Of a stretch of DNA of 64,000 nt, positions 14,694 through 55,072 are shown in pieces. Source of the DNA: Macrostomum hystrix (Eukaryota > Animalia > Platyhelminthes); the NCBI GenBank assembly GCA_950097015.1, contig CATNEN010000038.1, forward strand, positions 33,356,001 through 33,420,000, in the 5' to 3' direction. Positions within the stretch are counted from its first letter, which is position 1. The number at the start of each line of letters is the position of its first letter. The position numbers were made by a program, and so were the translations under genes. The notes under the pieces were generated by a model that did no database searches, was not told the origin of the DNA, and saw nothing but the letters and a program-made list of their open reading frames with translations.

Positions 14694-14940
14694 GAGAGAT
14701 GAGACACGGGAGAGATAAGACAGGAGAGAGATGAGACAGGAGAGAGATGCGACTCGGGAGAGATTAGACACTGAAGAGATGAGACAAGGGAGAGATGAGA
14801 CAGGGCAGAGAAGAGACACGGGAGAAATGAGACAGGGGAGAGATGAGACAGGAGAGAGATAAGACACGGGAGAGATGAGACAGGAGAGAGATGAAACAGC
14901 GGAGAGATGAGACGGGAGAGAGATGAGATAGCGGAGAGAT
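14694..14940. repeat. Purine-rich degenerate minisatellite (GGAGAGATGAGACA-like); shorter copy at 21718-21867
   Basis: Visible iterated gagatgagac units. Confidence 0.9.
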
Positions 14941-15665: not shown

Positions 15666-16026
15666 TCAGTTGTGCAGGCGGAAGTGGATCTTGGCCCTGG
15701 TGCAGCTGCACTCGCACACTCGCCAGTGGGCCGGCCAGCGGCTCGGCAGCTCGCCTTTGAAGCAGGTCGGCAGCCGGACGCACACGCGAGAGCAGAGGCT
15801 ACTCCAGAACTGCTGAGTCTCCACTGCAATTAGATGCATTGATTTGGTTTATAGGTGAAGCATTTCATTCACTGACAGTTATACACTGCTCATTGCATAG
15901 CTACTTACTATAGCTGATGCCAAACTGCCTCTTGGCAACCAGCTCCTGCGTGTCGACAGCCGCTGCGGCCGTCGACATCATCAGAGAGGAGGCGACCAAC
16001 AAGGTCAAGAAGCGGATTGTCACCAT
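15666..16026 (-). CDS. Secreted cysteine-rich prepropeptide, 91 aa (member 1b, duplicate of 8643-9003)
   Basis: Exons 16026-15909 and 15823-15666; no differences seen from copy 1. Confidence 0.85.
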
Positions 16027-20778: not shown

Positions 20779-22428
20779 CATTGTGTCAACTTTCTAGTAT
20801 CAAAGATTTGTTACAAACCTCCATCTTACAGTAAGACCCTTATACCGCCACCGCCACTCGGACACTGTATCCACCATTTTCTATTTAATTTCAACGTTGC
20901 TCACATATTACTGTTTCAACGCTACAGTAGCTTTTAAATTTGAATTCTTAAAAAACTGTCCATTGTCGTTTAATGTAAAAAGTATTAATTAAATAACACC
21001 TCTGGTGATTTTTTTAATTCTGTGGCAAGAAGCCAAAAGCAGCATGCCATTTTGTTGCACGGTAGAAGTGGTCTTTGGTTAATTTGAATTTACCTCGATT
21101 TTAATTGCGTTACTATCGTCACTCGACGGTATGCTTTGGCTACAGTGCTTGAACCATAGACATAATCTAGGAAACAGACAATGACAAGTCCGTGGCTGGG
21201 GTCAGCAAGCGTTATTCGCGTCCCTCTGTTTACTGTTTGGTCATGGCCATAGACAAAACGACGACTGCATGAGGAAATTATTGGGTGTTTTCCCCAGAAA
21301 ATGCGGTCTTTTATATCAGCGAAAATGTTAATTTTATGAAAACTATAAAATAGATCTGGCAGACCATCTTTTGGCAGTGAGACCAAGCATTGTTCCCTTA
21401 ATTATTTGTCTATGGACTCAAATAATCAATAGCCTCTGAACCCGGGCTATTGTCTATAATCCATTGCCACACCATTTCGGCATACATGCAGACGGGGAGA
21501 TAAAAGAAGTTTTCAACACTGACGCTTCATCATGTAGCAATACAATAAATCCTTGACTCAAACTACGCTCGTACTTGATTTCCCACTGTCAGTTTTTGTC
21601 TGTTTTCTATTTCTGTCTGTTCGACGGAGCTCTGGATTGGAAATTGCCTAATTACGTTAGAGCAGGGGTCGACATCCTAATATACCTCGCATTAGGACAG
21701 CGGGCCACATTGAATGTGGAGAGATGAGACAGGGGAGCGATGAGACAGCGGAGAGATGAGACAAGAGAGAGATGAGACACGGGAGAGAGATGAGACAGCG
21801 GAGAGATGAGACGGGAGAGAGATGAGATAGCGGAGAGATGAGTAGCGTGAGAGATGAGATGAGAGAAAATTCAAAGGTGCCGGTTTCAGGAGCTTCGAAG
21901 GAAGCATTTGGCGCAGCTGCATCAGTTGCAGGTGCTAAAAAAATAATCGGTTGATAATAAACGAGATTTCTTGATCGGCAACAAAGGTAGAGTAATTTAT
22001 TTTACTGTTCCCTGTTGCATCCATTTTAACTGTCTTGTCGAGTGGTTGGAGCGATTTGAGCAATCGTGAAAAGAGAATTATCCACTGCAGGTATTTTTCA
22101 AGCAATTTTCACTTGAGCACCTGAGCTGTCAAGCACTGCAGTTCCAGCATTCCACTCCTTCAGCAGAGGTCAAATCGTTGAATATTTCTCAATGCTGAAA
22201 TTTCAAAACTATACCGGAATTCAGTCTGTTTTACTTACTGAAACGATTAAAATTCTATACACATATATTATCGTATATTTGTTTAATGAAACTCTATAGG
22301 ATCAGAACTGGAGTAATAAGATAGACATGTCAGTTAACAGATGGTCATTAGTCCTGATCTTGATCATATTTCGCACAGCTGCAGTTGACATAGCGGCATT
22401 CATTGCAGGAGCAGTAGAGCATTGTTTG

Positions 22429-30596: not shown

Positions 30597-33500
30597 CTAG
30601 CAGTCGTATGTGCACAGAAACTGTTGCAGAAATGCGTAGACCAGAAATCCCACGTAAATGATGAAGAATGAGATTCCGATGGCTTTGCCCAGCTTGAAAT
30701 TGGCGATAGCAATCACAAATAGACACACAACCAGTATAATGATCAGGATTATGCCAAACTTCACGTGCGGAATCATCTTCATAACGCCCTGGCAGTAGTA
30801 TTGCTGAAATGTTTTGCCAGATTTTGCAACACCTAATTTAGATTGGTTGAAATATTGTTGTTCATTTTAATTTTTTTTTATAAAGATTCAATTTTTCACA
30901 GCGCGTTTTTATGATGTACAACCGTCTGCCTGGTGCATCCTCTGCAACGTCGGAGAGACATTGGTTCTCTTCTGGTGGGGAGACATTGGTTCTCTTCTGG
31001 TGGGGAGACATTGGTTCTCTGCTGCTTGGGGAGACATTGGTTCTCTGCTGCTTAGGGAGACATTGGTTCTCTGCTGCTTGGGGAGACATTGGTTCTCTTC
31101 TGGTGGGGAGACATTGGTTCTCTGCTGCTTGGGGAGACATTGGTTCTCTGCTGCTTAGGGAGACATTGGTTCTCTGCTGCTTGGGGAGACATTGGTCCTG
31201 TGCTGCTTAGGGAGACATTGGTCCTCTGCTGCTTGGGGAGACATTGGTCCTGTGCTGCTTAGGGAGACATTGGTTCTCTGCTGCTTGGGGAGACATTGGT
31301 TCTCTGCTGCTTGGGGAGACATTGGTTCTCTTCTGGTGGGGAGACATTGGTTCTCTGCTGCTTGGGGAGACATTGGTTCTCTTCTGGTGGGGAGACATTG
31401 GTTCTCTGCTGCTTGGGGAGACATTGGTTCTCTGCTGCTTAGGGAGACATTGGTTCTCTGCTGCTTGGGGAGACATTGGTCCTGTGCTGCTTAGGGAGAC
31501 ATTGGTCCTCTGCTGCTTGGGGAGACATTGGTCCTGTGCTGCTTGGGGAGACATTGGTTCTCTGCTGCTTGGGGAGACATTGGTTCTCTGCTGCTTGGGG
31601 AGACATTGGTTCTCTGCTGCTTGGGGAGACATTGGTTCTCTTCTGGTGGGGAGACATTGGTCCTGTGCTGCTTAGGGAGACATTGGTTCTCTTCTGGTGG
31701 GGAGACATTGGTCCTGTGCTGCTTAGGGAGACATTGGTCCTCTGCTGCTTGGGGAGACATTGGTTCTCTGCTGCTTGGGGAGACATTGGTCCTGTGCTGC
31801 TTAGGGAGACATTGGTTCTCTGCTGCTTGGGGAGACATTGGTCCTGTGCTGCTTAGGGAGACATTGGTTCTCTTCTGGTGGGGAGACATTGGTTCTCTGC
31901 TGCTTGGGGAGACATTGGTCCTGTGCTGCTTAGGGAGACATTGGTCCTGTGCTGCTTGGGGAGACATTGGTTCTCTGCTGCTTGGGGAGACATTGGTTCT
32001 CTGCTGCTTGGGGAGACATTGGTTCTCTGCTGCTTGGGGAGACATTGGTTCTCTGCTGCTTGGGGAGACATTGGTTCTCTGCTGCTTGGGGAGACATTGG
32101 TTCTCTTCTGGTGGGGAGACATTGGTCCTCTGCTGCTTGGGGAGACATTGGTCCTCTGCTGCTTGGGGAGACATTGGTTCTCTTCTGGTGGGGAGACATT
32201 GGTCCTCTGCTGCTTGGGGAGACATTGGTTCTCTGCTGCTTAGGGAGACATTGGTCCTCTGCTGCTTGGGGAGACATTGGTTCTCTGCTGCTTGGGGAGA
32301 CATTGGTTCTCTTCTGGTGGGGAGACATTGGTTCTCTGCTGCTTGGGGAGACATTGGTTCTCTGCTGCTTGGGGAGACATTGGTTCTCTGCTGCTTGGGG
32401 AGACATTGGTCCTCTGCTGCTTGGGGAGACATTGGTCCTCTGCTGCTTGGGGAGACATTGGTTCTCTGCTGCTTGGGGAGACATTGGTCCTCTGCTGCTT
32501 GGGGAGACATTGGTCCTCTGCTGCTTGGGGAGACATTGGTTCTCTTCTGGTGGGGAGACATTGGTCCTGTGCTGCTTAGGGAGACATTGGTTCTCTGCTG
32601 CTTAGGGAGACATTGGTCCTTTGCTGCTTGGGGAGACATTGGTTCTCTGCTGCTTGGGGAGACATTGGTTCTCTTCTGGTGGGGAGACATTGGTTCTCTG
32701 CTGCTTGGGGAGACATTGGTTCTCTTCTGGTGGGGAGACATTGGTTCTCTGCTGCTTGGGGAGACATTGGTTCTCTGCTGCTTAGGGAGACATTGGTTCT
32801 CTGCTGCTTGGGGAGACATTGGTCCTGTGCTGCTTAGGGAGACATTGGTTCTCTGCTGCTTGGGGAGACATTGGTCCTGTGCTGCTTAGGGAGACATTGG
32901 TCCTCTGCTGCTTGGGGAGACATTGGTTCTCTGCTGCTTGGGGGGACATTGGTCCTCTGCTGCTTGGGGAGACATTGGTCCTCTGCTGCTTGGGGAGACA
33001 TTGGTTCTCTTCTGGTGGGGAGACATTGGTTCTCTGCTGCTTGGGGAGACATTGGTTCTCTGCTGCTTGGGGAGACATTGGTTCTCTGCTGCTTGGGGAG
33101 ACATTGGTTCTCTGCTGCTTGGGGAGACATTGGTTCTCTGCTGCTTGGGGAGACATTGGTTCTCTGCTGCTTGGGGAGACATTGGTTCTCTGCTGCTTGG
33201 GGAGACATTGGTTCTCTGCTGCTTGGGGAGACATTGGTTCTCTTAAAAAAATGATATTTTTTTACGGCTAAGGTTGTCACCCCGAAGAGGATTATGTTTT
33301 GGCCACCCGGAGGAGTGAATCAGCTTATTGAGGGGATAGTTAGCTCAATGAGTTAAAAAATTATTTTGATTGGATGAATAGCCTTTTTTGAGGATAATTT
33401 GCTTAATTAGGGTATTAATTAGATCCCCTATTGCCGCCTCTACTTCCTGGAGGGGAGCTAAAATTGCAAGTGAAGTTCCAATGTGAAAAACCCGATTATT

Positions 33501-36500
33501 ACAAAGGTCAAGTGGCTTACTCGCTCCTTATCGCTGAACATGTCAATAGGCTCCATCTTGTTGATGCAGAGCTTGATGAAAAATGGCAGGCCAAGGCCAA
33601 GGTCGATGTCGAATACGTTGGATCCGATGGCATTTGACACGGCCATGTCGCCGCAACCGTCTTTAGCGACTATGATGGAGCTGAGAAGATCCTATAAGCA
33701 GAGAACACATTTTCCTTAGTTTTCCTAGTTTAACAGTAGAAAGACCACCGAGGTGTCTTTCTACTAAATTTATTTAGTTAGTCAATCCCCTATAGTTAAC
33801 AAAGATGGCCGACTTGGTTAATTTGAAATTTTGTGAGCAAAAAATGATGCCTATATTTGGGGTTCTTGCTACCAGACAACTCCGACGACAATCGTTGAAT
33901 ATCTCAACGATGCCGATGTCTTGTGATTCTGGAAGTTGTTTCATCGGAAAGAGCAGAAAATTCTAGCCCGTTTTCTGGATATTCATCGCGATTGGTTGAA
34001 TATTTTCTACTAGGAAAGGGCTCTCGATCCTTCCGCATCGTCTTCCTCTTCCACACTGTCGTGCTCCTCTTCGTACACATAATCACTGAAAGCATCGAAA
34101 TTTATCATCGACTCACTGGAATGCTGGTGCCAGCGGCTAGGAAAACCAGCGACATGACAAACGTGTCAACGCCAAGAAGACAGCCAAGACGGGCTACGAC
34201 TGTCACCATGCAGAAGGACACGGCTGCGATCCACAGGATGGACACAATGAAGCTTAGCACGAAGTATTTTCTGGAATGTGGCTCCGCAGCGTATTGTATA
34301 GTGCTAACAATATAAATTGTGTGTTTTAGAATGACTTCAGTTCGACTAGTCTATGGACTGAACAGCGGAACGCAGCCTTTAGCAACAGCTGCGGCTGTGC
34401 TGTCGGCTGCACATCTGACCCTATTGAGGCAGATGTAATCAATAACAATTTGGTGACAGTAGACCCGCACCTATGTCACACAAACCTACATGGTTACGAT
34501 GGACAGGCACTCTCACACGTGTGTAAATGGGCGCTATACTCACTCACTGTGCTTTGGGGGCCCGACACTCACTAGCGTTAATTGCAGGACAAACCTTCTC
34601 ATCGCGGCTTGTCTATTGTATAGCGCTAATAGCATCAAAATGGTCAATTTAAGAACTTGATTACAGTCCAGCTCCTGAATCTCACTTCAGATCCTCTCTC
34701 GAGCACTCTGGAATGGTCCAGCTGAACAGGCAAATGAATGGAAATGCCAGAACGAAAACGATCCACTTCAGGACGTAGACAGTCAGCTGCCCGCAGCTGG
34801 CCGGCTCGCCGTCCTCGCCAGTCGGCCGCTCAGGAGGGGCGCCGCGGATGTCCGGACAGCAGGCGCAACAGGCGCAGCAGGCGATGCGGCCGCCGTTGTC
34901 ATCGTCCTCCTTGTTTTCGGTTTTCGCTACCTCGGCTTCCACGTGTTTTTCATCGCTCCCCGAGACACCGTTTTCAGCGATGGTTTTCGGCTGCTTCGAA
35001 GTTGCCTAAGCAAAGCGTTGATGATGCTCGTTTATTAGTGATGCTCATTGACTAGCGAAGTTTCCGGATTTTTCCGGTGTTATTTCGTTACAAAATCGCA
35101 CATTTTTCCCGGACTATTTGAGACGATTTTAACCCTTAGCCATATTCAAATGTTCTATGATGAATGGGGGTGAATGGCCCCATACTTCACGCAGTGGGAG
35201 TGTACACCGCCTGACAATGAGAAAGTCATGGCAGATTTATCACACCCTGTGTTAGTGTGTGCTCAGGAATGGGCAGAATTGCTTTCTTGCTGGCTGTTGG
35301 TTGACCAAATGAAGGATCTCTGTTCAAAACGCCTGCAAATATATAATTTTTTAATTCAAAGTAAAACGTCTAACCAACCTCAGATTTTCCTGGCTTGGAG
35401 TTGCTGTCAACATTCGGTGTGGCTTTAGAATGAGCCGCATTAGATTCCTTTGAAAATAATTTCGCTGATGTTTTATTTCAAAAAACTATACGACAATTAA
35501 TTTCGAAGGAATTATTTTGCTTACTTTTCCAGAATCGCCAGCCCTTAGGCTAATCTTTGAGTCGTGCAGTGCAAGTAGCACAGAGTTGCGTCTGTCATGT
35601 TTGAACTGTTTTAGTTCCCGGCGCTCGCCAATGCTCGTTGTCGACTGTGTTGCAGCCTAGTTGGTTTTAAAATATGTTTTAATAATGCTACTTAAAGTAG
35701 GCAAGTTTATATATGATAGTTTTAATGAAATTCTCATATAATAATATGAGCTAGAAATATAACATCGTTATTTGTAACTTGTTGAACTCCGTTTATTAGA
35801 TAATTGTCTATGGTCCAAACACTGTTGGCCAAAGCAAACCTTATATAATCCTGTAATGTTAATTTTGTTATACTTTTTAAAATAGTTATTTATTTATTGT
35901 TAATTTTTAATTCTTAATAATTATTAATGTTTTTTATTTTATCTTTTGTATTTGTAGTTTCCCTAGCCAAGCGTTGATGAGGCATGCAGTTATCCATTGA
36001 TGCTCATCGTTTCGCAAAATTTCCGGATATTTCCGGTGTTACGTCGAACTAAAATGGCGAATTTTTCCGTCTTTTTAGTTTAACTACTATCCATCTTTAA
36101 ATTTTCTATGATGAATGGGGGAACAATAGCCATTTTGTTTATTTTTCAGATACTAATTATTATCAATAACTTATAAAATACTTTTTTATTAAAAATCAGC
36201 TCACACTGGCGTTTGGTCCGGTGCTGGTACCATCTTCAACATCGCCGGGCTCCACCTTTGAGCTGAAATATTATCGGCTTGTTTAGGATCAAATAACAAT
36301 GTTCTAATTAATATTACTACTTACAAGTTCAGCTTTGTGATCAGAATACAATAAGTACAGATAAGTAATACAATTCAGTGCTCGCACCGGCGGGACACAG
36401 CGCCTGTGAGGTATGAGACAGACCAGGCCCACGGGCTAAGGTCTGCGATGCCTCACACCTGCAGTCGCTCCTTGAGCAGGTTTGGCAGGAAGGAGACCTG

Positions 36501-39500
36501 TGCCTTCGGGCGCAGGAATCCCTCCACGCTGTCCCGTCAGCTGACCCATGGGTACACGCCCCGCGAGTGTTCAAGGCTGCCCCTAGGGCAGCCGGACAGA
36601 ATGGGCAACAGCGCTGGATGACCCATCCAGGGCCCCTGGCCAAAATGGGCACCTCTAGCCCCGGCTGGAGGGAAAGGTGTCACCCTTTGACCTTAACAGG
36701 GTATGCGGCCTGTCCGCAGCGTTCGTGCACCTGTGCGTGATCAGGTACCTCTGGCTACGGCTCTGAGGGAAAGGTGTCACCCTTTGACCTCAACAGGGTA
36801 TGCGGCCAGTCCGCATTTTTCGTGCACCTGTGCGTGATCAGGTACCTCTGGCTACGGCTCTGAGGGAAAGGTGTCACCCTTTGACCTCAACAGGGTATGC
36901 GGCCAGTCCGCAGCGTTCGTGCACCTGTGCGTGATCAGGTACCTCTGGCTACGGCTCTGAGGGAAAGGTGTCACCCTTCGACCTTTAACAGGGCATGCGG
37001 CCAGTCCGCAGTTTTTCGCCCACCTGTGCGTGATCAGGTACCTCTGGCTCCGGCTCGGGGGGAAAGGTGTCACCCTTCGACCTTAACAGGGTATGCGGCC
37101 AGTCCGCAGCGTTCGTGCACCTGTGCGTGATCAGGTACCTCTGGCTACGGCTCTGAGGGAAAGGTGTCACCCTTCGACCTTTAACAGGGCATGCGGCCAG
37201 TCCGCAGTTTTTCGCCCACCTGTGCGTGATCAGGTACCTCTGGCTCCGGCTCGGGGGGAAAGGTGTCACCCTTCGACCTTAACAGGGTATGCGGCCAGTC
37301 CGCAGCGTTCGTGCACCTGTGCGTGATCAGGTACCTCTGGCTACGGCTCTGAGGAAAAGGTGTCACCCTTCAACCTCATAGGGTACGCAGCCAGTCTGCG
37401 GGCCCGGCACAGCCTTTTGTGCTCTCCAATGCCTAAGGTCACACCGCGCCGAGGGGCTGGGAGGTCCGGGGAGTAATCCGGCCATTAGCGGTCCTCCATT
37501 CCTTTTTTTTTCTTTGCATTCCAGCGATTTCTCGGTGATATGGAATCAAACAACCAAAAACAAACGATGGAGATCGAGGAGGTACCCACGCATCGCGAAG
37601 GGCCCTCTTCGGACAACATCACGACCACAGCAGGACCAAGCCATCCAGGACCTGCCCCACCCGGCATCGGGCCCAACGAGCCACTTAGCGCCAAGCTGAG
37701 TAGCACGTCCGGTGCAGCCCGCCGCAGACGCCTCAAGGCCAAGCTACTGGCCTCGGGTGCCCTCGAAGTGTCGAACCCTCGGCTTAGGCCGAAGGAGGCC
37801 CAGCCAGCCATTACGGGAGGCCGTCAGCCCACCTGTCCGGCCCCTGAGGAAGGCAGGGCGCCCGAAGCCAATGAAGGGTACTCTCTACCGACTTCTTCAA
37901 GTGCTTTGGACCCTCAGTCCGGTGCCAGTGTAGCCCAGCCAGCCAGGGCGGCGGGCGTGGAAGGCCCTCGGTCCCCACGCCCTGCCGCCCAGGAGGGTGG
38001 GGCCTCTGGCTCCGCGACTGGGGGGGATCGCAGCAGGCCCACCTTCGCCGCCGTCGCAAGGAGGCAGCCGGCGATCGTCATCCTTGGCAGGGACGCGCGT
38101 CTGACTGCCGACCAGCTGACACAAGCTAGCCGCGTCATCGACGGGCTCCTGTGGAAGCAAACCCTCAAGGGCACGCCCCTGGCCATTAAAACTCACGCCA
38201 CGCGGGACTCGTGCCTGCTCATCTGGCCCAGCGACGCCGAGTCAGGACGGCGCCTCCTGGAGATGCTGCCTGAGCAGAGCTGGGAAGCCAATATGGCATT
38301 TTACCGAGAAGACGAGCCACCCCAGACGAAGAGGCACCGCATCTTCGTTCCGGCGGCTAGTGTCGTTACCTCTTCAGAAGAGTTGCGAAACGGATTGCTA
38401 GCAGTCAATCGCGACTTACCTGCCGCGGGCCTAGTGGTGCACGACACCATTCAGCATCCCGAGGGTCGGGGCTTCACCGCCATTCTTGGTCTGTCGGACG
38501 TCTGGATGCGCAAGTACCCAGACGACACACAGATCGCCATCGGCCTCCTAAAGCTGCGCATCAGAGCTTTTGAGGCAGACAAGCGCCGGAAGCAGGGCGT
38601 GAACCCTACCGAGGCGGCAGCCGAAGGAGCGTCGGCCCCTAAGGCTGCTAGGCCCTCGGTCAGGAGACACAAAGCCCAGCATAGCCACGATGGAAAGGCA
38701 GAACGCGCTGCTGAGGGGGGCTCCGATCGTCACCCAGCACGCTCCACTAAAAGGAAAGGCCTGCTGCAGAGAGCTGCGGAGGCAGTCCAGTCAGCAAAGC
38801 TGACCCACCTCAGGAGAGAGGCTTCCGGCCTGTTGAGGCGGGCAGCCCAGCCTAGGGCGACTGGCGGCGCCACCGTTGGGCCTAGCTCCATGGAGCAGGG
38901 ACCTCGGGGACCACGCCAAATTGCCCAGGGCGGGACTCTCACCGAGACCATGGGCACCACGCAGATGGTGGGCTCCGCTACGGGAGAAAACAGGGCGTCT
39001 CAGGATGCCCAATACCCGCCCGCAGGTCAGGAGCCTGACCCTGTGGGGGAGCCCATGGAGACCGGCAGCCCCCGTCATCTCCCTATTACTGAAGAGGAGG
39101 AAGAGGGCCTCCTGGCCCAATCCCCTCAGAAACCAGAGGAACATCAATGAGTGAAAATTTTTGTTGCCTCCAAATAAACTCTCAGCACTGCGTGGCGGCA
39201 TCGGTTAACCTGCTGCGCGTGGCTGAGAGCACGCTCCCGAGCCTCATTTTTGTTCAGGAGCCCTGGCTTTCCAAAGGTAAGTCTACCAATATACCTTCGG
39301 GTTTTGACTGTTTTTGCATGGCGAACACCCCTCGCCCCAGATCTTTGATCCTTGCCGCAAATTCTCTGAAAGCGTGGATGAGACCCGACCTTTCCACCGG
39401 GGACATCTGCGTGATCCAAACCCTGCACATAGTGCAGCGTAAGTCTACTCTGGTGGCGTCGGTCTACCTGCCAGGCGATGCCCCCACGGTTAGCGATGCG

Positions 39501-42500
39501 TTGGTAGCTCTCTGTGACTACGCGCAGGCGCGCAATTTCGAGCTCCTCATTGCCGGTGATGTGAACGCACACCACACGCACTGGGGTAGTAAGAACATCA
39601 ACGACCGCGGCGAAGAGCTCCTCGCTTTCGTCGGTGGCACCAACCTTAATTTCTGCAATGTCGGAAGCACCCCGACTTTCGACAATGGCCGCTGGTCGGA
39701 GGTCCTCGACGTCACCCTCGCCTCCCCGGGCGTCCTCGCCAGGATATCCGGATGGAGGGTGTGGGGAGAAGAAGAGTCCCTCTCTGACCATCGCTTCATC
39801 CGTTTCGAGGTTGCAAATGCTACCCCGAAAAAAACTATCACCTGGAGCAGAAACGTCCGAAACACCGATTGGACCAGGTTCGGCCTTGAGCTGAGCAGGG
39901 GCCTGCGCGACATCGGCACCCCGGGTGAAATCACAAACTGTGACACTGCTGACGAGTTGGCCTCCAAGCTTGGAGGCACGGTCATCAATGCCTATGAGGC
40001 GGCCTGTCCCCTCAAAGCCTATAAAGGCAAAAAATCTGCCCCCTGGTGGAACCCCGAGCTCGGAATCCTGAGAAAACGAGCCAAGGCTCTGCAGAGGAGA
40101 TCTCTAAAAACCAGGACTCCTGAAGACAGAGAAGCCTATGTCCATGCTAGTCATGAGTTCAAGGGCCAAGTCAGAAGGGCAAAAGCGGCAAAATGGCGCC
40201 AATACTGCGAAGGGCTTGAGGGCTCCCGCCCCACTGCCCGCGTGGTAAAAGCGCTCACCCAAGACCGCTTCTCCAAACTATCCGTGGTAAAGAGGCCTGA
40301 TGGGTCCACCACAGATACGCCGGAAGAGACGCTCCAGCTCATGCTCGGGCATTTCTTCCCCAGCAACCAGACAGCGCAGGGCCAGCCAGACCACACTGTG
40401 GGCGGGCAAGGTCTAGCAAAGTCTCTCGTCACCAAAGACCGCATCATCCGTGCGGCAAAGTCCTTTAATCCATACAAGGCTCCGGGCCCAGACGGCATTT
40501 ACCCGGCTTTCTTGCACGAGGCAGTGAAAAATCCCTGCTTCCTGGACATTCTCTGTCAGCTTCTGCGGGCCTGCGTGGAGCTGGGCTATGTACCAGCCAC
40601 CTGGAGGGAGGCCCGCGTGGTCTTCCTTCCCAAGCCCGCAAAAGACGACTATCAATCAGTCAAGGCCTACCGTCCTATCAGCCTGACTTCCTCCTTACTG
40701 AAGCTGCTTGAGAGACTGGTGCTCTGGCGCCTCCTCTCTGTGGAGCTCAAACGCTTCCCTCTCTCTCAGAACCAGCACGCCTTTAGGGCCGGCAGATCCA
40801 CTGAGAGCGCCCTCCACTCCATCGTGGAAAAGCTGGAACGAGCAGTGCTGGGTAACAGTTTTGCTCTTTCCGTCTTCATCGACATCGAGGGGGCCTTCGA
40901 CAACGTCCGTTTCGAAGCGTTCCGTAGAGCTCTTGAATCTAGAGCCACGCACCCCCACCTTGTCCGCTGGATTATGTACATGATCCAACACCGCTCTGTT
41001 GTGGCCAACCTCAATGGGCACACGCTTTCAGCGCCATGTCCAGAAAGGGGGCCCTCAGGGCGGGGTCCTTACTCCTCTTCTTTGGAATCTTGTCATGGAT
41101 GAGCTGCTTGAAGATGCTCCGCAAGATCCGGTCCAAAAAGTGGGATACGCCGATGATGTGACCGCCACCTGTGCGGGACCTTCAGCGGAAACCACCAGAG
41201 ACCTCGTTCAGGGTTTCATCAACAGAGCTGAAAGCTGGGCGACCCGCTGCGGGCTCAGACTCTCCGAGTCCAAGACCGTGGCGATCATGTTTACCAGCAA
41301 GCTGCTTTGGACCATAAAACCCCTCACTCTCTACGGCAAGGACATCGCCATGAGCAAGCAAACTCGCTGCCTTGGTCTGATCTTGGACCATAGGTTAAAC
41401 TGGAGTCACCACCTCCGTTTCAAAACCAAGAGGGCCCTGGCGACCCTGGCGCAAGTCAGGCGAGCCGTTGGCACCACTTGGGGCCTCACCCCCCAGAAGC
41501 TCTGGTGGATCTACACCACGATCATCAGACCCTCGATCTCGTACGCCAGCCTCATATGGGCTAGCGCCACTAGCACCCAGGGAAACCTGGATGCGCTTTA
41601 CAGGGTGCAGGGCAGAGCCTGTCGCATGACCTTGGGCGCCTCACCCTCCACCCCCTTCGAAGGCATGAACGCCTTCCTGGGAGCCACCCCTCTGGACATT
41701 TTCGTCAAGGGAGAGGCCGCGAAGAGCACCAGGCGACTCATGGATGCCGGTGTGACCTTCAAATTCTCGAGGGCCTTCAAAAAGCGCTCTCTCGCTCCCC
41801 ACTCCGATCTTTGCCTCAAGATTCTGGGCGAGTGCGAAGGGCTTTACATCCTCTCCGATGCTATACCCGCCACTCTGATCCTGAGCCACAGGTACAAGGT
41901 CGAAATTCCAGCCTCGCCATGAGGCAAACGACAGCTGGGCCGACTCTGAAATCCACTGTTATACCGACGGCTCCATGATGAACGGAATCTCTGGTTTCGG
42001 AGCCTGTATCTACAAGGGAGGAGAGGTCGCCTGGACTCACTCCCAGCACACTGGAAAAAACTCCAGCGTTTTTCAGAACGAGATGCTCGCCATCAGTTCT
42101 TGTGCAGCAGAGCTGCGCCTGAGGGGGCTCACTGACCGGAAGATCTTCTTCCACTCCGACAGTCAAGCCGCCCTCCGGGCCCTCGACCGAAGCACCACCT
42201 GCTCTAAGACTACCTTGGACTGCCATGCCCAGCTCAATGAGCTGGCGCGGGCAAACGAGGTCAAGCTCAAATGGATCCCAGGCCACGCTGGCTTCCCAGG
42301 GAATGAGATGGCGGACCAGCTCGCAAAAGCTGGAGCAGCCAGCACCCTGGCGGGACCAGAACCTGGCGCTCCTATCCCCGCCAATGTGACCAACCTCAAG
42401 CTAAAACGCTGGATGGAGACACAGCATCTGGACAGATGGACCAAGACCCAGAACTGCAAGCAATCTAGGGCAGCGGTCCCTTGTCCGTCTCACCGCCTGC

Positions 42501-45500
42501 GCAAAGCCCTCTTAAAGCTAAACCGCAGGGATCTCCGCGCAGTCAGCATGGCCCTCTCAGGTCATGGCTGCTTCTCTCGGCACCGCTTTCTCCAGGGCCA
42601 GCTCCTGGAGGACAAATGCACTTTTTGTAGTTCGGGCAGTGAAAACGCCGAACACTTTATCTGCCAATGCCCAGTTTTCACCAGGGCAAGGCTTGAACAC
42701 CTTGGGCCTAACCCAACTCTCTCCGATGTTTGCAGGCCCGAGAGCATCCCTCAGCTTGCCCGGTACCTCCGGGATACTGGGCGAGCCAACGTCTTTCCCA
42801 CGGACAGTGCGGAGGACCAAGCTGCAGGCGAGTCCAACGGGCCACCCTGAGCAACACCACCTCTCCCTGAGGTCGTCTGGTTTGCCAGGGGTTAGCGGAA
42901 TGGGCGGTCCTCTCCGCCTCCTCGCTGCGTCCGTCGGTACGGAGCACCCTGCAGCTAAGTCAAGTAAGTCAATACAATTCAGTTCTCAAACTCAAAAATC
43001 ACATACTTAAACTTGAACAAAAAATCCACAAACCATTTGCAATGATTCTCAGCTTCCGCAAGCCGGTCCATGAGCCTGCTATTTAGCACCATGATGACAA
43101 TGTACAGCGCGTACAGAACTAGCAATATCACCGCGTCCCAGATCTGTACCACAGAGTCGTACATCACAAAGATGAAGAACAGAATAGAGACCAGGTACCA
43201 AGTGGCGTCGCGAGCCAAAGGTCGCCAGTCTAAGGTCAGAACCTGAGGTTCGGTTTTTCGGAATTGTCTTTTTAAACCTTTTGTATTTAGAATGAGTCAA
43301 TTTGTTACTTTGAGTCACTCCCTAAGCACTCTCTATGTCACAGCGTTACTTAAAATTACAAATTTATAAGCTTGTAACTTTGTTATTTTTGCTAGTGCTT
43401 TCTAAGAAAATAAATTTAAATCTCAAGTTTCTAAGAATCATATCCGATGAAGTCTGACAATTAAATATATTTAAGTACAGTGTCAGCAGCCGTAATGTAC
43501 AGTAAGTGAAGAGAATGCCAGTCTCACCTGTCCAGCGAAGGCTGCTGAAAGTGACACAATCACTAGCAGGTTGAACACGGCGGACCTGCGGGTTTTTAAT
43601 TACTCGGTGAGATTTAGAAGGTGCATAAGTTCGGATAATTCACTCACCCTGCAATGGTGCCCCACAACCTTCACTCACCCTGCAATGGTGCCCACATCCT
43701 TCACTCAACCTGCAATGGTGCCCACATCCTTCGCTCACCCTGCAATGGTGCCCACATCCTTCACTCACCCTGCAATGGAGCCCACACCCTTCACTCAACC
43801 TGCAATGGAGCCCACACCCTTCACTCACCCTGCAATGGTGCCCCACACCCTTCACTCACCCTGCAATGGTGCCCCACACCCTTCACTCACCCTGCAATGG
43901 TGCCCTGCACCCTTCACTCAACCCTGCAATGGTGCCCCACAACCTTCACGATCAACCTGCAATGGTGCCCCACAACCTTCACTCAACCCTGCAATGGTGC
44001 CCCACAACCTTCACTCACCCTGCAATGGTGCCCCACACCCTTCACTCACCCTGCAATGGTGCCTCACTCCCTTCACTCACCCTGCAATGGTGCCCTGCAC
44101 CCTTCACTCAACCCTGCAATGGTGCCCCACAACCTTCACTCAACCCTGCAATGGTGCCCCACAACCTTCACTCAACCCTGCAATGGTGCCCCACAACCTT
44201 CACTCAACCCTGCAATGGTGCCCCACACCCTTCACTCACCCTGCAATGGTGCCTCACTCCCTTCACTCACCCTGCAATGGTGCCCTGCACCCTTCACTCA
44301 ACCCTGCAATGGTGCCCCACAACCTTCACTCAACCTGCAATGGTGCCCCACAACCTTCACTAAACCCTGCAATGGTGCCCCACACCCTTCACTCACCCTG
44401 CAATGGTGCCCTGCACCCTTCACTCAACCCTGCAATGGTGCCCCACACCCTTCACTAAACCTGCAATGGTGCCCACACCCTTCACTCACCCTGCAATGGT
44501 GCCCACACCCTTCACTCACCCTGCAATGGTGCCCCACACCCTTCACTAAACCTGCAATGGTGCCCCACACCCTTCACTAAACCTGCAATGGTGCCCCACA
44601 CCCTTCAAACAACCTGCAATGGTGCCTCACACCCTTCACTCACCCTGCAATGGTGCCCACACCCTTCACTCAACCTGCAATGGTGCCTCACACCCTTCAC
44701 TCAACCTGCAATGGTGCCCCACACCCTTCACTCACCCTGCAATGGTGCCCCACACCCTTCACTCACCCTGCAATGGTGCCCCACACCCTTCACTCACCCT
44801 GCAATGGTGCCTCACACCCTTCACTCACCCTGCAATGGTGCCCTGCACCCTTCACTCAACCCTGCAATGGTGCCCCACACCCTTCACTCACCCTGCAATG
44901 GTGCCCTGCACCCTTCACTCAACCCTGCAATGGTGCCCCACACCCTTCACTAAACCTGCAATGGTGCCCACACCCTTCACTCACCCTGCAATGGTGCCCA
45001 CACCCTTCACTCACCCTGCAATGGTGCCCCACACCCTTCACTAAACCTGCAATGGTGCCCCACACCCTTCACTAAACCTGCAATGGTGCCCCACACCCTT
45101 CACTCAACCTGCAATGGTGCCTCACACCCTTCACTCACCCTGCAATGGTGCCCACACCCTTCACTCAACCTGCAATGGTGCCTCACACCCTTCACTCAAC
45201 CTGCAATGGTGCCCCACACCCTTCACTCACCCTGCAATGGTGCCCCACACCCTTCACTCACCCTGCAATGGTGCCCCACACCCTTCACTAAACCTGCAAT
45301 GGTGCCCCACACCCTTCACTAAACCTGCAATGGTGCCCCACACCCTTCACTCAACCTGCAATGGTGCCTCACACCCTTCACTCACCCTGCAATGGTGCCC
45401 ACACCCTTCACTCAACCTGCAATGGTGCCTCACACCCTTCACTCAACCTGCAATGGTGCCTCACACCCTTCACTCAACCTGCAATGGTGCCCCACACCCT

Positions 45501-47285
45501 TCACTCACCCTGCAATGGTGCCCCACACCCTTCACTCACCCTGCAATGGTGCCTCACACCCTTCACTCACCCTGCAATGGTGCCCTGCACCCTTCACTCA
45601 ACCCTGCAATGGTGCCCCACACCCTTCACTCACCCTGCAATGGTGCCCTGCACCCTTCACTCAACCCTGCAATGGTGCCCCACACCCTTCACTAAACCTG
45701 CAATGGTGCCCACACCCTTCACTCACCCTGCAATGGTGCCCACACCCTTCACTCACCCTGCAATGGTGCCCCACACCCTTCACTAAACCTGCAATGGTGC
45801 CCCACACCCTTCACTAAACCTGCAATGGTGCCCCACACCCTTCACTCAACCTGCAATGGTGCCTCACACCCTTCACTCACCCTGCAATGGTGCCCACACC
45901 CTTCACTCAACCTGCAATGGTGCCTCACACCCTTCACTCAACCTGCAATGGTGCCCCACACCCTTCACTCACCCTGCAATGGTGCCCCACACCCTTCACT
46001 CACCCTGCAATGGTGCCCCACACCCTTCACTAAACCTGCAATGGTGCCCCACACCCTTCACTAAACCTGCAATGGTGCCCCACACCCTTCACTCAACCTG
46101 CAATGGTGCCTCACACCCTTCACTCACCCTGCAATGGTGCCCACACCCTTCATTCAACCTGCAATGGTGCCTCACACCCTTCACTCAACCTGCAATGGTG
46201 CCTCACACCCTTCACTCAACCTGCAATGGTGCCCCACACCCTTCACTCACCCTGCAATGGTGCCCCACACCCTTCACTCACCCTGCAATGGTGCCTCACA
46301 CCCTTCACTCACCCTGCAATGGTGCCCACACCAGCATCGGAGTCAAAAGACACGGCAGCCAGCGAGCTGAACAGCTCGGGTGCAGACGATCCGGCAGCCA
46401 TGAAGGTGGCGCCGGCCACATCCTCTGACAGTTTCAACTTCTCCGAAATCACTTCCAGGGAAGGCACAAAGAAGTCGTCGCAGATGATAGCCATTGCTGG
46501 TCGTTAAATTACAAGTTGATGACAAACTGTATCACTTTATTAACTTTATTAACTTTTCATCCATCAATGTCAACTCGACTATTTCTCACCGATGAACGTG
46601 ATGATCGTCACGACTATGTACAGCACAATCCATCCGGCCAGACTGTTGGTGGACTTTTCAAAGTCGCAGCTTTCCCAGGCCACTCCGGAGTGACTGGATG
46701 CGTTCACCACTTCGCATTTGTAGTTGTAGTGAATGCTGGTGTTTACTGTGACAAACAACAGCTGCCGACTGACCAGTAGGGCGTCTGGAGGAGATTGATA
46801 ATTGAGTGAGATAAGGTTGATAATGTGTTGAGATAAGATTGATAATTGATGGGGTGGGATAAGATTGGTGATGGAGTGAGATAAGATTGATAATGTAGCG
46901 AGATAAGATTGATAATATATTGAGACAAGATCGAGAATGTGGCGAGATAGGATTGATAAAGTAGTAGGACGAGATAAAAATTTAGATGAGACTAGGGTGA
47001 TATTGAGGATAAATTAAGGGCACTGATGTTATATTGGATACTGCAGTGGTTGTATTAAAGACTGATAATAAAATGAGGTGGCTTACCTGCTTGGGCCAAG
47101 GGCACCACATCTCTGACCCCAAAGTAGCCCCACCTGTAGGCGGCTGCAGCAGCGGACGCGAGTACTAGAAAACAAGCCGCCGCAGATGCGCACCTGCCCG
47201 GAGATTGCCTAGCAACCAGGCGAGAGTAGCCCAGACTGCGATCCCACTGACCCTTGCGCTGTCGTGCTGAGTAGAGTCGGACCAT
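30597..47285 (-). CDS. K+-dependent Na+/Ca2+ exchanger (SLC24/NCKX family), 12 exons, about 660 aa
   Basis: Exons 47285-47087, 46784-46590, 46496-46313, 43585-43528, 43242-43007 (or 43034), 36262-36205, 35656-35525, 35447-35379, 35005-34686, 34270-34117, 33691-33521, 30803-30597. All GT-AG and phase-consistent (1983 nt). Alpha-1 repeat [13 protein letters not shown]...GVGTIAGSAVFN; alpha-2 repeat LAAGTSIPD...GSNVFDI. Confidence 0.92.
30953..33243. repeat. 25/26-bp minisatellite (about 88 units) in the last NCKX intron
   Basis: Unit ggggagacattggttctctgctgctt, with interspersed variants ...cttctggt and agggagacattggtcctgtgctgctt. Confidence 0.97.
36660..37400 (+). repeat. About 98-bp tandem monomers (about 7.5 copies) in the LINE 5' UTR
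   Basis: Repeated gggaaaggtgtcaccct...gtgatcaggtacctctggct; two alternating variants give a 196-bp period in the 3' part. Confidence 0.95.
37540..39150 (+). CDS. LINE ORF1 (gag-like), 536 aa
   Basis: Long ORF whose stop overlaps the ORF2 start (ATGA). SGAARRR and TFAAVA motifs are typical of ORF1 in this group. Confidence 0.8.
   Translation: MESNNQKQTMEIEEVPTHREGPSSDNITTTAGPSHPGPAPPGIGPNEPLSAKLSSTSGAARRRRLKAKLLASGALEVSNPRLRPKEAQPAITGGRQPTCPAPEEGRAPEANEGYSLPTSSSALDPQSGASVAQPARAAGVEGPRSPRPAAQEGGASGSATGGDRSRPTFAAVARRQPAIVILGRDARLTADQLTQASRVIDGLLWKQTLKGTPLAIKTHATRDSCLLIWPSDAESGRRLLEMLPEQSWEANMAFYREDEPPQTKRHRIFVPAASVVTSSEELRNGLLAVNRDLPAAGLVVHDTIQHPEGRGFTAILGLSDVWMRKYPDDTQIAIGLLKLRIRAFEADKRRKQGVNPTEAAAEGASAPKAARPSVRRHKAQHSHDGKAERAAEGGSDRHPARSTKRKGLLQRAAEAVQSAKLTHLRREASGLLRRAAQPRATGGATVGPSSMEQGPRGPRQIAQGGTLTETMGTTQMVGSATGENRASQDAQYPPAGQEPDPVGEPMETGSPRHLPITEEEEEGLLAQSPQKPEEHQ
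39147..42850 (+). pseudogene. LINE ORF2 (AP endonuclease, RT, RNase H, CCHC finger) with two frameshifts
   Basis: VQEP, GDVNAH, SDH (APE); YRPISL, PQGGVL, GYADD (RT); YTDGS, DSQAAL, WIPGH, GNEMAD (RNase H); CTFC...EHFIC. Frame breaks near 41025 and 41909. Confidence 0.9.
43640..46331. repeat. 30-32-bp minisatellite (about 87 units) formed from the NCKX exon 3/intron 3 junction
   Basis: Minus-strand unit GTGGG(G)CACCATTGCAGG|GTGAGTGAAGGGT. A 742-bp higher-order period is visible in the ORF track (44619/45361, 45083/45825). Confidence 0.97.
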
Positions 47286-49398: not shown

Positions 49399-50790
49399 GT
49401 GAATAAAATTTCAGAATGGCTGAAACATCCGAAACTCAACCTAAGCTACTTTCCGAACGAGCTTGTTAGCGGATTGACAACAGAGGAGTTGACTAGTCAA
49501 GCTGAATTGAACGCAATGAACGATCTCGTGGAGAAAGTGATGTATGAGGACACCGACTGTCCAACGCTGGATGCCTCTGGATGGTTCACTCTGCTGCCTT
49601 CAACAGAAGATACCATAAAGGAACTAGAAGCTATTGTTGGCCAGCAGTACGACGCAACGAAAGTTCAATCCACTGAGAAGCAAGAAGTTGCGGCTGTTCG
49701 TAAACTGAAGGTTTTTTTGACAGCTCATTCGCTTAATTGCGACATCGACAACTGTACGTGATATTGCATATCTGGCTGAAAAACTAAAGTACTTTTACGC
49801 GACGCTACGAAAGGATGACAAGTCCTTCTATGCACCGACTACGCTTATCTGCTGGAGAGCTGGGCTCTTCCGGTATTTTCTGCGTGTTCGCCAGTTGAAC
49901 ATCATCGAAAACGTCGCATTTGCGCAGGCAAATTTGGCACTTAAGGCTGTTGGCCGTCTGTTCCTTAAAGCCGGTGGGAGGATCCTACATTTTAAAGCAA
50001 TTTGTAAGGAGGACATGGAGAAGCTGGCGTTCTACTTTGACCGGTAATCTCCCACCGTGTTGTGATGTGACAAGAGGTGTACTTTGTTCTCGTGTATTTT
50101 TTTGGTCAACGCGGTCGTGAGTGGTATCGTGGATTGACGACTGAAAGTCTGGTTTTTGAGACCAACAACGTGTGCGGAACTGTCATTCGTCTACGGACTG
50201 GGCTGCAAAAGACTTTGGGCGCTAGACTCTCGACAGGTGCAATGAACGACAACAAGGAAGCGGTCATCCGGGCTACTGGTGGAACCCAATGCCCTGTGCA
50301 GGCCGTTCAACTGTACCTTGAGAAGCGTAGCTCCACCGCTGGTTTGACGGAAGACTCGCCGCTGCTTCTGACGCCCAAAAAGAAGCCGGTTTTCGGCGCA
50401 CCTTGGTTCACCAAGATTCCACTTGGTGTGAACAGTGTCGGTGCAATGATGAAGGCAATATCGACATCGGCTGGATTGTCCAAGGAGTACACATCGCATT
50501 GCATTCGACCGACTGTCATCTCTGATCTTCACGAAGCTGGTTTTTCGGTTGGAACAAATTTGCAACATCACGGGTCACAAGGAGACCAAGACTGTTCAAA
50601 GGTTAGTACAAGTGAGATATGTTTGTTAAACAGTAAATTTAATTTACTCTACATTCTCAATGTACTATACATTATCCTACACTACACAGGTACCTGACGC
50701 ATGGAAAGCGCAAGGCCACGGAGAGTGGCTTCGCGCACTCGTTTTATGGCCATTATTTAACGCCGAAACATACTACAGTATATAATCTAC
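49399..50790 (+). mobile_element. Degenerate Crypton-like tyrosine recombinase gene with a spliceosomal intron
   Basis: LKYFYATLRKDDKSFYAPTTL (49780 region), FFGQRGRE (catalytic R), CPVQAV, SHCIR (HxxR). After a frameshift near 50548: ITGHKETKTVQR|Y across a GT-AG intron at 50602-50689. Several stops and frameshifts. Confidence 0.8.
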
Positions 50791-52964: not shown

Positions 52965-53453
52965 GGCCAGAGCAAGGACAGGACTACTCAGTTGGGGTTG
53001 CGGCTGCGAGCAGCCAATGAGAATCAGTTAATGTCGTTCAAATAAAAAAGCGGGGGCGGCTGTGAAGGCGGACTCAATTGAGCCGGTCTCAGCTGTGGTC
53101 TGATGTCGCTTGCTTACGACCGTCTTTGATTAATCAAACCTAGTCAAAGGAGACTGCCAGTACTACCGTCTTTGCCGCTTTCATATTTTCTTGTGATCAA
53201 CGCGTTGAGAACTTTTGCTTCTGGTTCTAATGAAAACGCGGCGAAATTTCCGCCTCGGAAACAACAGATTACTGAACCGCTATTGAGGACTGGGATAATC
53301 GCTTGGGATCTGGCAAAAACAAGTAAGGGGGACTCATTTAGCAAGGAGACTCTTCTGGAATTGAATTTTTCTAGGTGATGCTTGGTAGGTCTTACCTCAG
53401 GATTTTCTGAGTTCTGAGTCTTACCTGAGGATTTTGGAGAGTAGTTAGTCCTA

Positions 53454-54311
53454 CCTCCTTTCGAAGGCATGAACGCCTTCCTGGGAGCCACTCTTTTGGA
53501 CATCTTCGTCAAGGGAGAGACCGCGAAGAGCACCAGGCGCCTCATGGATGCCGGCGTGCCTTTCAATTTCTCGAGAGCCTTCAAAAAGCGCTCTCTCACT
53601 CCCCACTCCGATCTCTGCCTAAAGATTCTGGGCGAGTGCGAAGGGCTCAACATCCGCTCCGATGCAATACCCGCCACTCTGATCCTGAGCCACAGGTACA
53701 AGGTCAAAATTCAGCCTCGCCAGGAGGCAAACGACAGCTGGACCGACCCTGAAATCCACTGTTATACCGACGGCTCCCTGATGAACGGAATCTCGGGATT
53801 CAGAGCCTGTATCTAGCTCGTACAAGGGAGGAGAGGTCGCTTGGACTCACTCCCAGCATACTGGGAAAAACTCCAGCGTTTTTCAGAACGAGATGCTCGC
53901 CATCAGTTCATGCGCTCAGGGCATGGCTGTTTTTCTCGGCATCGCTATCTCCAGGGCCAGCTCCTGGAGGACAAATGCACATTCTGTAGCTCGGGCAGTG
54001 AAAACGCCGAGCACTTTATCTGCCCAGTTTTCACCAGGGCAAGGCTTGAACACCTTGGGCCTAACCCAACTCTCTCCGATGCTTGCAGGCCCGAGAGCAT
54101 CCCTCAGCTTGCCCGGTACCTTTGGGATACTGGGCGAGCTGACGTCTTCCCCACCGACAGTGCGGAAGACCACGCTGCGGGCCACCCTGAGCAACACCAC
54201 CTCTCCTGAGGTCGTTTGGTTTGCCAGGGGTTAGAGGAATGGGCGGTCCCCTCCGCCTCCTCGCTGCGTCCGCCGGTACGGAGCACCCCGCAGTTAAGTC
54301 AAAGTAAGTCA
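53454..54311 (+). mobile_element. 5'-truncated copy of the LOA-like LINE with an internal RNase H deletion
   Basis: Matches about 41652-42970 minus about 450 bp; 11-bp TSD AGTTAGTCCTA (53443-53453, 54312-54322). Confidence 0.92.
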
Positions 54312-55072
54312 AGTTAGTCCTAACTGGGCTAAGCACATAGGCTAAATAATACAGTAGTAAAATTATATTAAAATAATCTGGGAAAACAAGGCTTTTTTCG
54401 AGAACTGAAAAACTTGCTTAGCCATTTTTTAGCTCTGACGCGGAAAATTTTTTGCACGAAGAATTTAATCCTAATCAACGGTAATGAGTCTGTGACGCAT
54501 CATCGCTCTGGTTGATCTCCATTTTACTCATTCCCAATTCGCGTGTAGCTACGACTTTTGGTTAATTGGGCATCTTATGCAGTTTGTTTGCAGCTCTGAA
54601 TATTTTCATCCCACGGGTTCATCTTCCTAGTGAAATTCTGAGAAACAATATTTGCTTCAGGCTGTGCAGACGTGATTTGATGCGATAATCAATTAGCTGA
54701 TTCCTGTCGAAGGCTGTCTAGTTTATGAGCTCCATCTTCCTCTCCTTTGACGCCCATAAAAAAGAAAAGCTGCAAGCCTAGGATGAGATTGCAGACAAAT
54801 TTATTGAAGAAACGAAGGTCGTTCAGAGCGACGGATTTTTTCACGATTCTGATAGTAGAGCTAGACAAGGCTTTCGACTCTAGTTAGGTGAAATTAATCC
54901 TTGTAGAGGTGGACCTCTGCGAGACATGAATCAACTAGTCTAATCTTTGATTAACATGCAAGAGCACAATTTTCTGGTCCATTATGTCATTAAGTCGTAG
55001 TTATTTGACTATTTATCAAATAAATCGTAGTTCAAATAAAATATCGTAGTTATTTTAGGACCGTTGCTAATC

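What the first reader, a model, noticed from the sequence alone, without database searches (positions are those of the whole stretch)
43640..46331. A minisatellite made of a splice donor: about 87 copies of the NCKX exon 3/intron 3 junction
Seen: the unit consists of the last ~17 coding nt of exon 3 (GTG GGC ACC ATT GCA GG, VGTIAG of the conserved alpha-1 repeat) plus the donor GTGAGTGAAGGGT. The array fills almost all of the 2.7-kb intron with dozens of perfect donors in native exonic context. Read-through past the first donor gives GCA GGG TGA, an immediate stop, so only donor 1 is productive. Variant units read TGCAG|GTTGAG or TGCAG|GTTTAG, which are AG|GT junctions like recursive splice sites. 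Inference: the array could act as a U1 snRNP sink, an NMD-coupled expression dial dependent on copy number, or a substrate for recursive splicing or intron gain.
Basis: partly seen in the sequence, partly recalled or inferred. Interest (0 to 1): 0.8.

Follow-up and report, generated by a model that had tools for sequence, protein, structure and literature searches.

The report
Splice-donor minisatellite in flatworm exchanger gene
In a flatworm's sodium/calcium exchanger gene, the end of one exon and its splice signal are copied 87 times in a row into the next intron, but the assembled RNA uses the first copy, so this is likely a tolerated repeat of a kind already known from human and lancelet genes.

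Summary
The array is real: 87 units of 30-33 nt at 43639-46333 fill 98% of intron 3 of an NCKX-type gene whose nearest named relatives are from Macrostomum lignano. Each unit copies 21 exon nt plus 9 intron nt of the exon 3 donor. 40 of 87 units (the authentic one and 39 decoys) keep AGG|GTGAG(T/C), and any decoy gives a stop after residue 193 of 628. Spliced contigs from three runs in two studies join exon 3 at donor 1 to exon 4. No other donor was seen, but contigs lose rare forms. The intron predates the array: the last copy runs into a 62-nt remnant intron, and a paralog has an intron at the same position. Intron gain therefore fails here, and the AG|GT variants would regenerate only weak donors. 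The class is known: human F7, IFI6, CBS, LMNB2, PDGF and ABCA7 VNTRs, and lancelet 'mirages'. This scan has noted it before on other DNA (41 findings in at least 22 genomes). A second 88-copy array without donors sits in intron 10. Verdict: likely a neutral new member of a known kind; a hidden leak to NMD remains untested.

The parts
30597..47285 (-). NCKX-type Na/Ca exchanger gene, 11 coding exons, 628 aa (host gene)
   Evidence: Model (corrected after the alignment). Pfam Na_Ca_ex in 4 of 4 exons scanned, 3 above the curated cut-off. 78% identical (459 of 587 aligned residues) to M. lignano P0001. Introns 1-5 are seen spliced in contigs.
46313..46496 (-). Exon 3 (184 nt), ending in ...VGTIA-GG (phase 2)
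   Evidence: both ends seen in the spliced contigs of X2 and X4.
46304..46333 (-). Source unit: last 21 nt of exon 3 plus the first 9 nt of the intron, holding the authentic donor (GT at 46312-46311)
   Evidence: 8 units differ from this 30-mer by one base, and all 86 copies align to it. Donor use is shown by loose ends.
43639..46333 (-). Minisatellite of 87 units (30-33 nt, 23 types) with 39 intact decoy donors and 47 units whose donor is broken
   Evidence: DNA depth.
44736..46152 (-). Higher-order block repeat inside the array (period 742 nt = 24 units; 675 nt identical between copies)
   Evidence: Autocorrelation and longest exact run; unit string.
43586..43647 (-). 62-nt remnant of the likely ancestral intron 3: last donor copy, 53 unique nt, TAAT at -17, CAG acceptor
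   Evidence: that it is ancestral is inferred.
43528..43585 (-). Exon 4 (58 nt, [20 protein letters not shown])
   Evidence: spliced to exon 3 in X2, X3 and X4 and to exon 5 in X3 and X7.
30955..33243 (-). Second minisatellite (26 nt x 88.6) inside intron 10, 151 nt from the acceptor and not built from a splice site: an internal control

Best explanation
The array is a run of 87 copies of the exon 3 end plus its splice donor, which likely arose by slippage duplication across the edge of an older 62-nt intron and is likely a tolerated passenger, because the assembled RNA splices at the first copy. Steps: (1) shown: the unit is the 30-nt junction (21 exon + 9 intron nt), and the last copy continues into 53 unique intron nt. 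(2) inferred: one duplication across the donor seeded the array, which then grew by unit slippage and by block duplication (742-nt blocks). (3) shown in contigs: donor 1 is joined to exon 4. (4) inferred from the F7 experiments: the most upstream of identical donors wins, by 5'-to-3' or exon-definition selection, so the decoys stay mostly silent. (5) inferred: rare use of a decoy leaves TGA in frame after residue 193, and such RNA would be removed by NMD, so selection barely sees the array.
For: Unit anatomy and remnant intron. Donor-1 junction in X2, X4 and X3; the loose-end letters map to exon 4 at 43554 and to unique exon 3 letters at 46330. These are 3 of 6 spliced or RNA-guess runs laid, from 2 studies; X7, X9 and X10 do not cross the junction. 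Paralog intron at the same position with non-repeat letters (record 3). The protein is collinear with the four Macrostomum homologs that cover the junction (GTIAGSAVFN). A similar-sized array without donors lies in intron 10, and tandem repeats cover 14.6% of the window, 10.4% without this array; in M. lignano, simple and tandem repeats make up 15% of the genome (PMC5730564, passage). About 7% of tolerated 30-nt seeds in this gene would span a donor by chance (240 of 3266 positions in a rough model). 47 of 87 donors are broken, which a selected donor array would not predict. Precedents: only the first donor is used in F7, LMNB2 and PDGF (PMC1557585); mirages do not disturb splicing (PMC3087553).
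Against: All RNA evidence is assembled contigs at depth 5-15, which drop rare forms, and decoy products would be NMD targets, so a leak could be hidden. In IFI6 and CBS two pseudo-donors are used, and in ABCA7 the second donor is used and splicing shifts with length. The two decoys nearest the exon are intact. The last copy rebuilds the original 62-nt intron, which intron definition would favour. 7 of 14 hand-counted mutation events fall in +1..+6 (binomial P = 0.012, post hoc; 0.093 for all 9 intron positions), which could mean that decoys cost something.
Confidence: 0.76

Rival explanations
1. Leaky decoys act as an NMD-coupled expression dial: a sizeable share of transcripts would splice at the nearest decoys (46282, 46251) or at the last copy (43648, which rebuilds the 62-nt intron), carry the stop at codon 194 and be destroyed, so array length and make-up would set the exchanger's dose.
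For: 39 intact decoys, all giving the same stop. The two nearest decoys are intact. Proximal pseudo-donors are used in IFI6 and CBS, and splicing depends on length in ABCA7. Mutation events cluster in +1..+6, as weak selection against decoys would predict.
Against: No contig with unit letters joined to exon 4 in the three spliced or RNA-guess runs laid there (X3, X7, X10; only X3 crosses the junction). Donor 1 is used in X2, X3 and X4. If leak were costly, the nearest decoys should decay first, but 4 of the first 10 decoys are intact against 35 of the other 76. The clustering also fits mutation at the ends of G runs, because the same GGG-to-GGT change occurs at -19 in exon-derived sequence.
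Confidence: 0.16
2. Recursive splicing: the intron would be removed in steps at the CAG|GTT junctions of variant units, which act as zero-length exons.
For: 34 of 86 copies carry CAG|GTT, and a zero-length cassette there keeps the frame. The pyrimidine share before the pseudo-acceptors (0.47) lies within the native range (0.40-0.73). One native donor, TG|GTTTGT, is weak yet used.
Against: After joining to exon 3 the regenerated donor would read AGG|GTTGAG or AGG|GTTTAG, matching 3 of 9 consensus positions against 4-8 for the 10 native donors. The array has 1 TRAY motif in 2.7 kb, and G makes up 44% of the sequence before its AGs against 0-22% before native acceptors. Known ratchet points lie mostly in long introns and are conserved (PMC8605326, passages).
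Confidence: 0.04
3. The array is a selected U1 snRNP sink or splicing enhancer that was amplified for its donor motifs.
For: 39 extra U1-type sites with G runs in a transcribed intron.
Against: The commonest variants destroy the donor: +1 G>T in 34 units and an inserted T in 13. The paralog's intron has non-repeat letters at its 3' end. An equally large array without donors sits in intron 10. One gene's nascent RNA is unlikely to deplete an abundant snRNP (recalled knowledge, not tested).
Confidence: 0.02
4. The array, or most of its length, is an assembly artefact.
For: A 742-nt block is repeated with 675 nt identical, which assemblers can miscount. Only one DNA run was laid, and it may be the source.
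Against: Unit depth is 92-122 times single copy, and both boundaries are recovered in DNA contigs. 23 unit types lie in ordered blocks.
Confidence: 0.02

Closest known systems
Human exon/intron-junction VNTRs: F7 IVS7 (37 bp x 5-9), IFI6/6-16 intron 2 (25 pseudo-donors), CBS intron 13 (31 bp x 15-20), LMNB2 (100 bp x 10-15), PDGF intron 4 (81 bp x 16-18). PMC1557585: abstract, introduction, discussion and reference passages seen; the primary IFI6, CBS, LMNB2 and PDGF papers were not seen.
   Same: The first unit spans the exon/intron boundary, so the authentic donor is repeated into the intron, and the most upstream donor is the one seen in mRNA. The unit length equals that of CBS.
   Different: More copies (87) and more exon sequence per unit (21 nt against 4 in F7). 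The array replaces almost the whole intron, which was likely 62 nt. The host is a flatworm. Length polymorphism was not tested.
Human ABCA7 intron 18 VNTR (25 bp x about 12-427). PMC5954066, passages seen.
   Same: Each unit begins with the donor GT; use of the second donor gives an out-of-frame transcript; large copy numbers occur.
   Different: ABCA7 has measured, length-dependent splicing changes and a disease link. Here no use of a decoy was seen and nothing was quantified.
Amphioxus 'mirage' minisatellites (Adh3, globins BflGb6 and BflGb9). PMC3087553, passages seen.
   Same: Invertebrate tandem duplications of exon/intron boundaries that do not disturb regular splicing; concerted evolution inside the array with divergent edge units; proposed as a route to intron gain.
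   Different: The globin cases are short (up to 6 units for BflGb6). Here there are 87 units with higher-order blocks, and no frame-keeping cassette can end at an intact decoy.
Recursive splice sites (ratchet points). PMC8605326, passages seen.
   Same: Juxtaposed AG|GT in 34 variant units.
   Different: The regenerated donors are weak, the intron is 2.7 kb, and the junctions are by-products of a G-to-T change that kills the donor.

Membership tests
Exon/intron-junction minisatellite (F7 type, 'mirage') | Tandem array whose first unit spans an authentic exon/intron boundary | tested here: met
   The source unit 46333-46304 is 21 exon + 9 intron nt, and all 87 units align to it.
Exon/intron-junction minisatellite (F7 type, 'mirage') | Splice signal repeated in the neighbouring intron | tested here: met
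   39 of 86 downstream copies keep AGG|GTGAG(T/C).
Exon/intron-junction minisatellite (F7 type, 'mirage') | Regular mRNA made from the authentic, most upstream donor | tested here: met
   Donor-1 junction in contigs of X2, X3 and X4, two studies; minor forms are not visible.
Exon/intron-junction minisatellite (F7 type, 'mirage') | Homogenised interior with divergent edge units | tested here: met
   742-nt blocks with 675 nt identical; private variants in the last units.
Exon/intron-junction minisatellite (F7 type, 'mirage') | Copy number varies between alleles (VNTR) | not testable with these tools
   One DNA run laid, held as contigs that collapse the repeat.
Recursive splice site (ratchet point) | Juxtaposed acceptor and donor, AG|GT | tested here: met
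   34 of 86 copies read CAG|GTT.
Recursive splice site (ratchet point) | Functional donor regenerated after the first step | tested here: not met
   3 of 9 consensus matches against 4-8 for the 10 native donors; a sequence score only.
Recursive splice site (ratchet point) | Exon-to-site intermediates or lariats in nascent RNA | not testable with these tools
   Only assembled contigs were offered.
Intron gain by tandem duplication of an AG/GT proto-splice site (Rogers model, as cited in PMC3087553) | Intron absent before the duplication and built from the duplicated sequence | tested here: not met
   A 62-nt remnant with its own acceptor; a paralog has an intron at the same position with non-repeat letters.
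Na/Ca exchanger, NCKX type (host gene) | Two Na_Ca_ex alpha-repeat domains and close named homologs | tested here: met
PF01699 in exons 3, 5, 9 and 10; 57-78% identity to 5 of 5 hits.

The most novel reading that the evidence does not exclude
The array pits two geometries against each other in a short-intron flatworm gene: donor 1 keeps the native exon, and the last copy rebuilds the native 62-nt intron. A large hidden share of transcripts uses decoy donors and is destroyed by NMD, so copy number tunes the exchanger's dose, and donor-killing variants (47 of 87 units) have spread because they plug the leak.
Probability: 0.12. Interest if true: 0.5.

Novelty: new member of a known kind. Interest (0 to 1): 0.2.

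Why it matters
As it stands, it adds a flatworm case to a known class. My searches found no report from Macrostomum (papers; scan notes), though most subscription papers are not searched. Its value is as a natural reporter: an intron likely stretched from 62 to 2727 nt, with identical donors at both ends, tests whether this animal chooses donors by exon or by intron definition. If NMD hides a large leak, it would extend ABCA7-like dosage effects to an invertebrate and explain why donor-killing variants are common in such arrays.

Tried and rejected
(1) An idea that the intron 10 array copies a splice acceptor. It rested on a 19-nt micro-exon in my first model. The homolog alignment showed no such residues; the true acceptor is at 30803, 151 nt from the array. 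Rejected, and the model was corrected to 11 exons and 628 aa. (2) U1 duplex energies: the fold can slide out of register, so I relied on in-register match counts. (3) A branch-point argument: TRAY is nearly absent from the array, but it is also missing from 6 of 10 native intron tails, so it is weak. (4) G-quadruplex-driven expansion: mean G4Hunter score 0.83, 12% of windows at 1.2 or more, 0 canonical and 34 long-loop motifs; possible but not shown. (5) Selection against decoys: the post hoc P is 0.012 or 0.093 depending on the window chosen, and the nearest decoys are intact; undecided. (6) No listed holder was on record as RNA; runs X2, X3, X4, X7, X9 and X10 were read as RNA-derived because their contigs skip introns. 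(7) X7's contig stops 2 nt inside exon 4, and X9 and X10 do not reach the junction: no information. (8) No whole genome is held, so no genome-wide count of junction arrays was made; the 7% chance estimate comes from this one gene. (9) The paralog's intron 3 length could not be read; only its 3' end was seen. (10) Two papers were not held, so IFI6 is cited second-hand. (11) PMC10078293 passages gave no junction-spanning case. No supplements were read.
Full report
Observation. Tandem Repeats Finder reports a 31-nt array of 87.0 copies (93% matches, score 4427) at 43639-46332. On the minus strand it begins inside an exon ending ...GTG GGC ACC ATT GCA GG and runs through nearly all of a 2727-nt intron (46312-43586). 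Splitting gives 87 units of 30-33 nt. In the true register each unit is a copy of 46333-46304: 21 exon nt and the 9 intron nt GTGAGTGAA. Eight units differ from that 30-mer by one base. Of the 87 units, 40 keep AGG|GTGAG(T/C) (the authentic donor and 39 decoys); 34 carry +1 G>T, which shifts the site to CAG|GTT; and 13 carry an inserted T. Use of any decoy leaves GCA GGG TGA in frame: 193 aa instead of 628.

Host gene. The gene has 11 coding exons between 47285 and 30597. My first model had a spurious 19-nt exon, which the homolog alignment removed. Four of 4 exons scanned hit Pfam Na_Ca_ex, three above the curated cut-off. A search with exon 8 returned 5 hits among 33 candidates, four named Macrostomum lignano in full and one listed with its name cut short. 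The best is 78% identical over 587 aligned residues, and the four homologs that cover the junction read GTIAGSAVFN like the model. The window is therefore likely from a Macrostomum relative. In M. lignano simple and tandem repeats make up 15% of the genome (PMC5730564, passages). Here they cover 14.6% of the window, or 10.4% without this array.

Is it real? Ten runs from 3 studies hold part of the stretch. I laid 7 of them, on the two flanks only. In DNA run X1, a unique 2888-nt contig ends at the entry to the array and a 733-nt contig starts at its exit. Summed depth on unit sequence is 8,478-10,270 against 84-92 on the flanks, a ratio of 92-122. This fits about 87 copies in order of magnitude. 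X1 may be the source of the assembly, summed contig depth is no copy number, and a 742-nt block with 675 identical nt could be miscounted, so the exact length is open.

Which donor is used? Contigs of X2, X3, X4, X7, X9 and X10 skip introns, so I read them as RNA-derived, although none is on record as RNA. In X2 and X4 the contig leaves exon 3 at donor 1 and continues with exon 4 letters. In X3 the contig enters exon 4 from letters unique to exon 3. That is 3 of 6 such runs, from two studies; X7, X9 and X10 do not cross the junction. No contig joined unit letters to exon 4. Depth was 5-15 and contigs drop rare forms, so this shows that donor 1 dominates surviving RNA; it does not show that decoys are never used.

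Origin. The last unit's donor runs on into 53 unique nt with TAAT at -17 and the CAG acceptor: a complete 62-nt intron. A paralog contig in X1 matches exon 4 and its acceptor, then continues with unrelated non-repeat intron letters, and it shares the next donor as well (record 3; its spliced form is X3 record 12). The intron position is thus older than the array. The simplest history (inferred) is one 30-nt duplication across the donor, then unit slippage and block duplication; the unit string shows a 24-unit block present about three times and private variants in the last units. A rough count for this gene puts 240 of 3266 tolerated 30-nt seeds (7%) across a donor. A second array of like size (26 nt x 88.6) lies inside intron 10 and is not built from a splice site. 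No special cause is needed.

Intron gain: not for this intron. In addition, 0 of 1802 internal cassettes ending at an intact decoy keep the frame; with shifted donors, 46 of 1184 do, 34 of them of zero length. Recursive splicing: the 34 AG|GT junctions exist, but after joining to exon 3 the donor would match 3 of 9 consensus positions, below all 10 native donors (4-8). The sequence before the pseudo-acceptors is 44% G against 0-22% natively. On the other side, their pyrimidine share is ordinary and one weak native donor (TG|GTTTGT) is used, so it is unlikely rather than excluded. U1 sink: the variants that spread most destroy the donor. NMD dial: open. For it: the two nearest decoys are intact, the last copy rebuilds the short intron, and 7 of 14 hand-counted mutation events fall in +1..+6 (P = 0.012 post hoc, 0.093 with all 9 intron positions). 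Against it: decay is no stronger near the exon (4 of 10 intact against 35 of 76), and the same G-run change occurs in exon-derived positions.

What is known. PMC1557585 (abstract, introduction, discussion, reference passages) describes minisatellites whose first unit spans an exon/intron boundary in F7, IFI6, CBS, LMNB2 and PDGF. It shows by mutagenesis that the most upstream of identical donors is chosen, and reports use of two nearby pseudo-donors in IFI6 and CBS. PMC5954066 (passages) describes the ABCA7 VNTR, up to about 427 units each starting with the donor, with one-unit retention and length-dependent splicing. PMC3087553 (passages) describes lancelet 'mirages' that leave splicing intact and were proposed as a route to intron gain; I owe this lead to earlier scan notes, which list 41 findings with these words in at least 22 genomes. 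PMC8605326 (passages) gave the features of ratchet points. I found no report for Macrostomum. No supplements were read.

Verdict. This is a new member of a known kind, likely neutral (0.76), with a hidden NMD-coupled leak as the main rival (0.16). Interest 0.2.

Noticed in passing
window 36440-42950 (intron 5 of the exchanger gene), + strand: A non-LTR retrotransposon lies antisense in intron 5: ORFs with endonuclease, reverse transcriptase and RNase H domains split over three frames, and a 97-nt tandem repeat at its 5' end. A fragment of the same element lies at 53449-54312. Intron 5 is still spliced correctly in X3, X7 and X10.
   Followed up: partly
window 7916-21859: A 6.9-kb tandem duplication at 99.2% identity carries two 661-codon carboxylesterase-family ORFs (11769-13754 and 18793-20778); it is either a recent duplication or an uncollapsed haplotype.
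   Followed up: partly
window 30955-33243: A 26-nt x 88.6 minisatellite (8 unit types) fills most of intron 10 of the same gene; used as a control.
   Followed up: yes
window 46792-46963: A degenerate 22-nt array (7.5 copies) in intron 1 ends 7 nt before the exon 2 acceptor, which is still used.
   Followed up: partly
window 43034, - strand: Exon 5 uses a weak donor, TG|GTTTGT, seen spliced in three runs.
   Followed up: yes
window about 52860-52700, - strand: A short reading frame that looks by eye like a signal peptide followed by a dibasic site, perhaps a secreted peptide precursor. My one translation check was out of frame, so it is unverified.
   Followed up: no
window 3711-4307 and 50071-50694, + strand: A caspase-domain ORF and a weak DUF3504 hit below the curated cut-off.
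   Followed up: no
runs X1-X4 and X7, exons 3-5: At least three paralogous exchanger genes appear in the same runs.
   Followed up: partly
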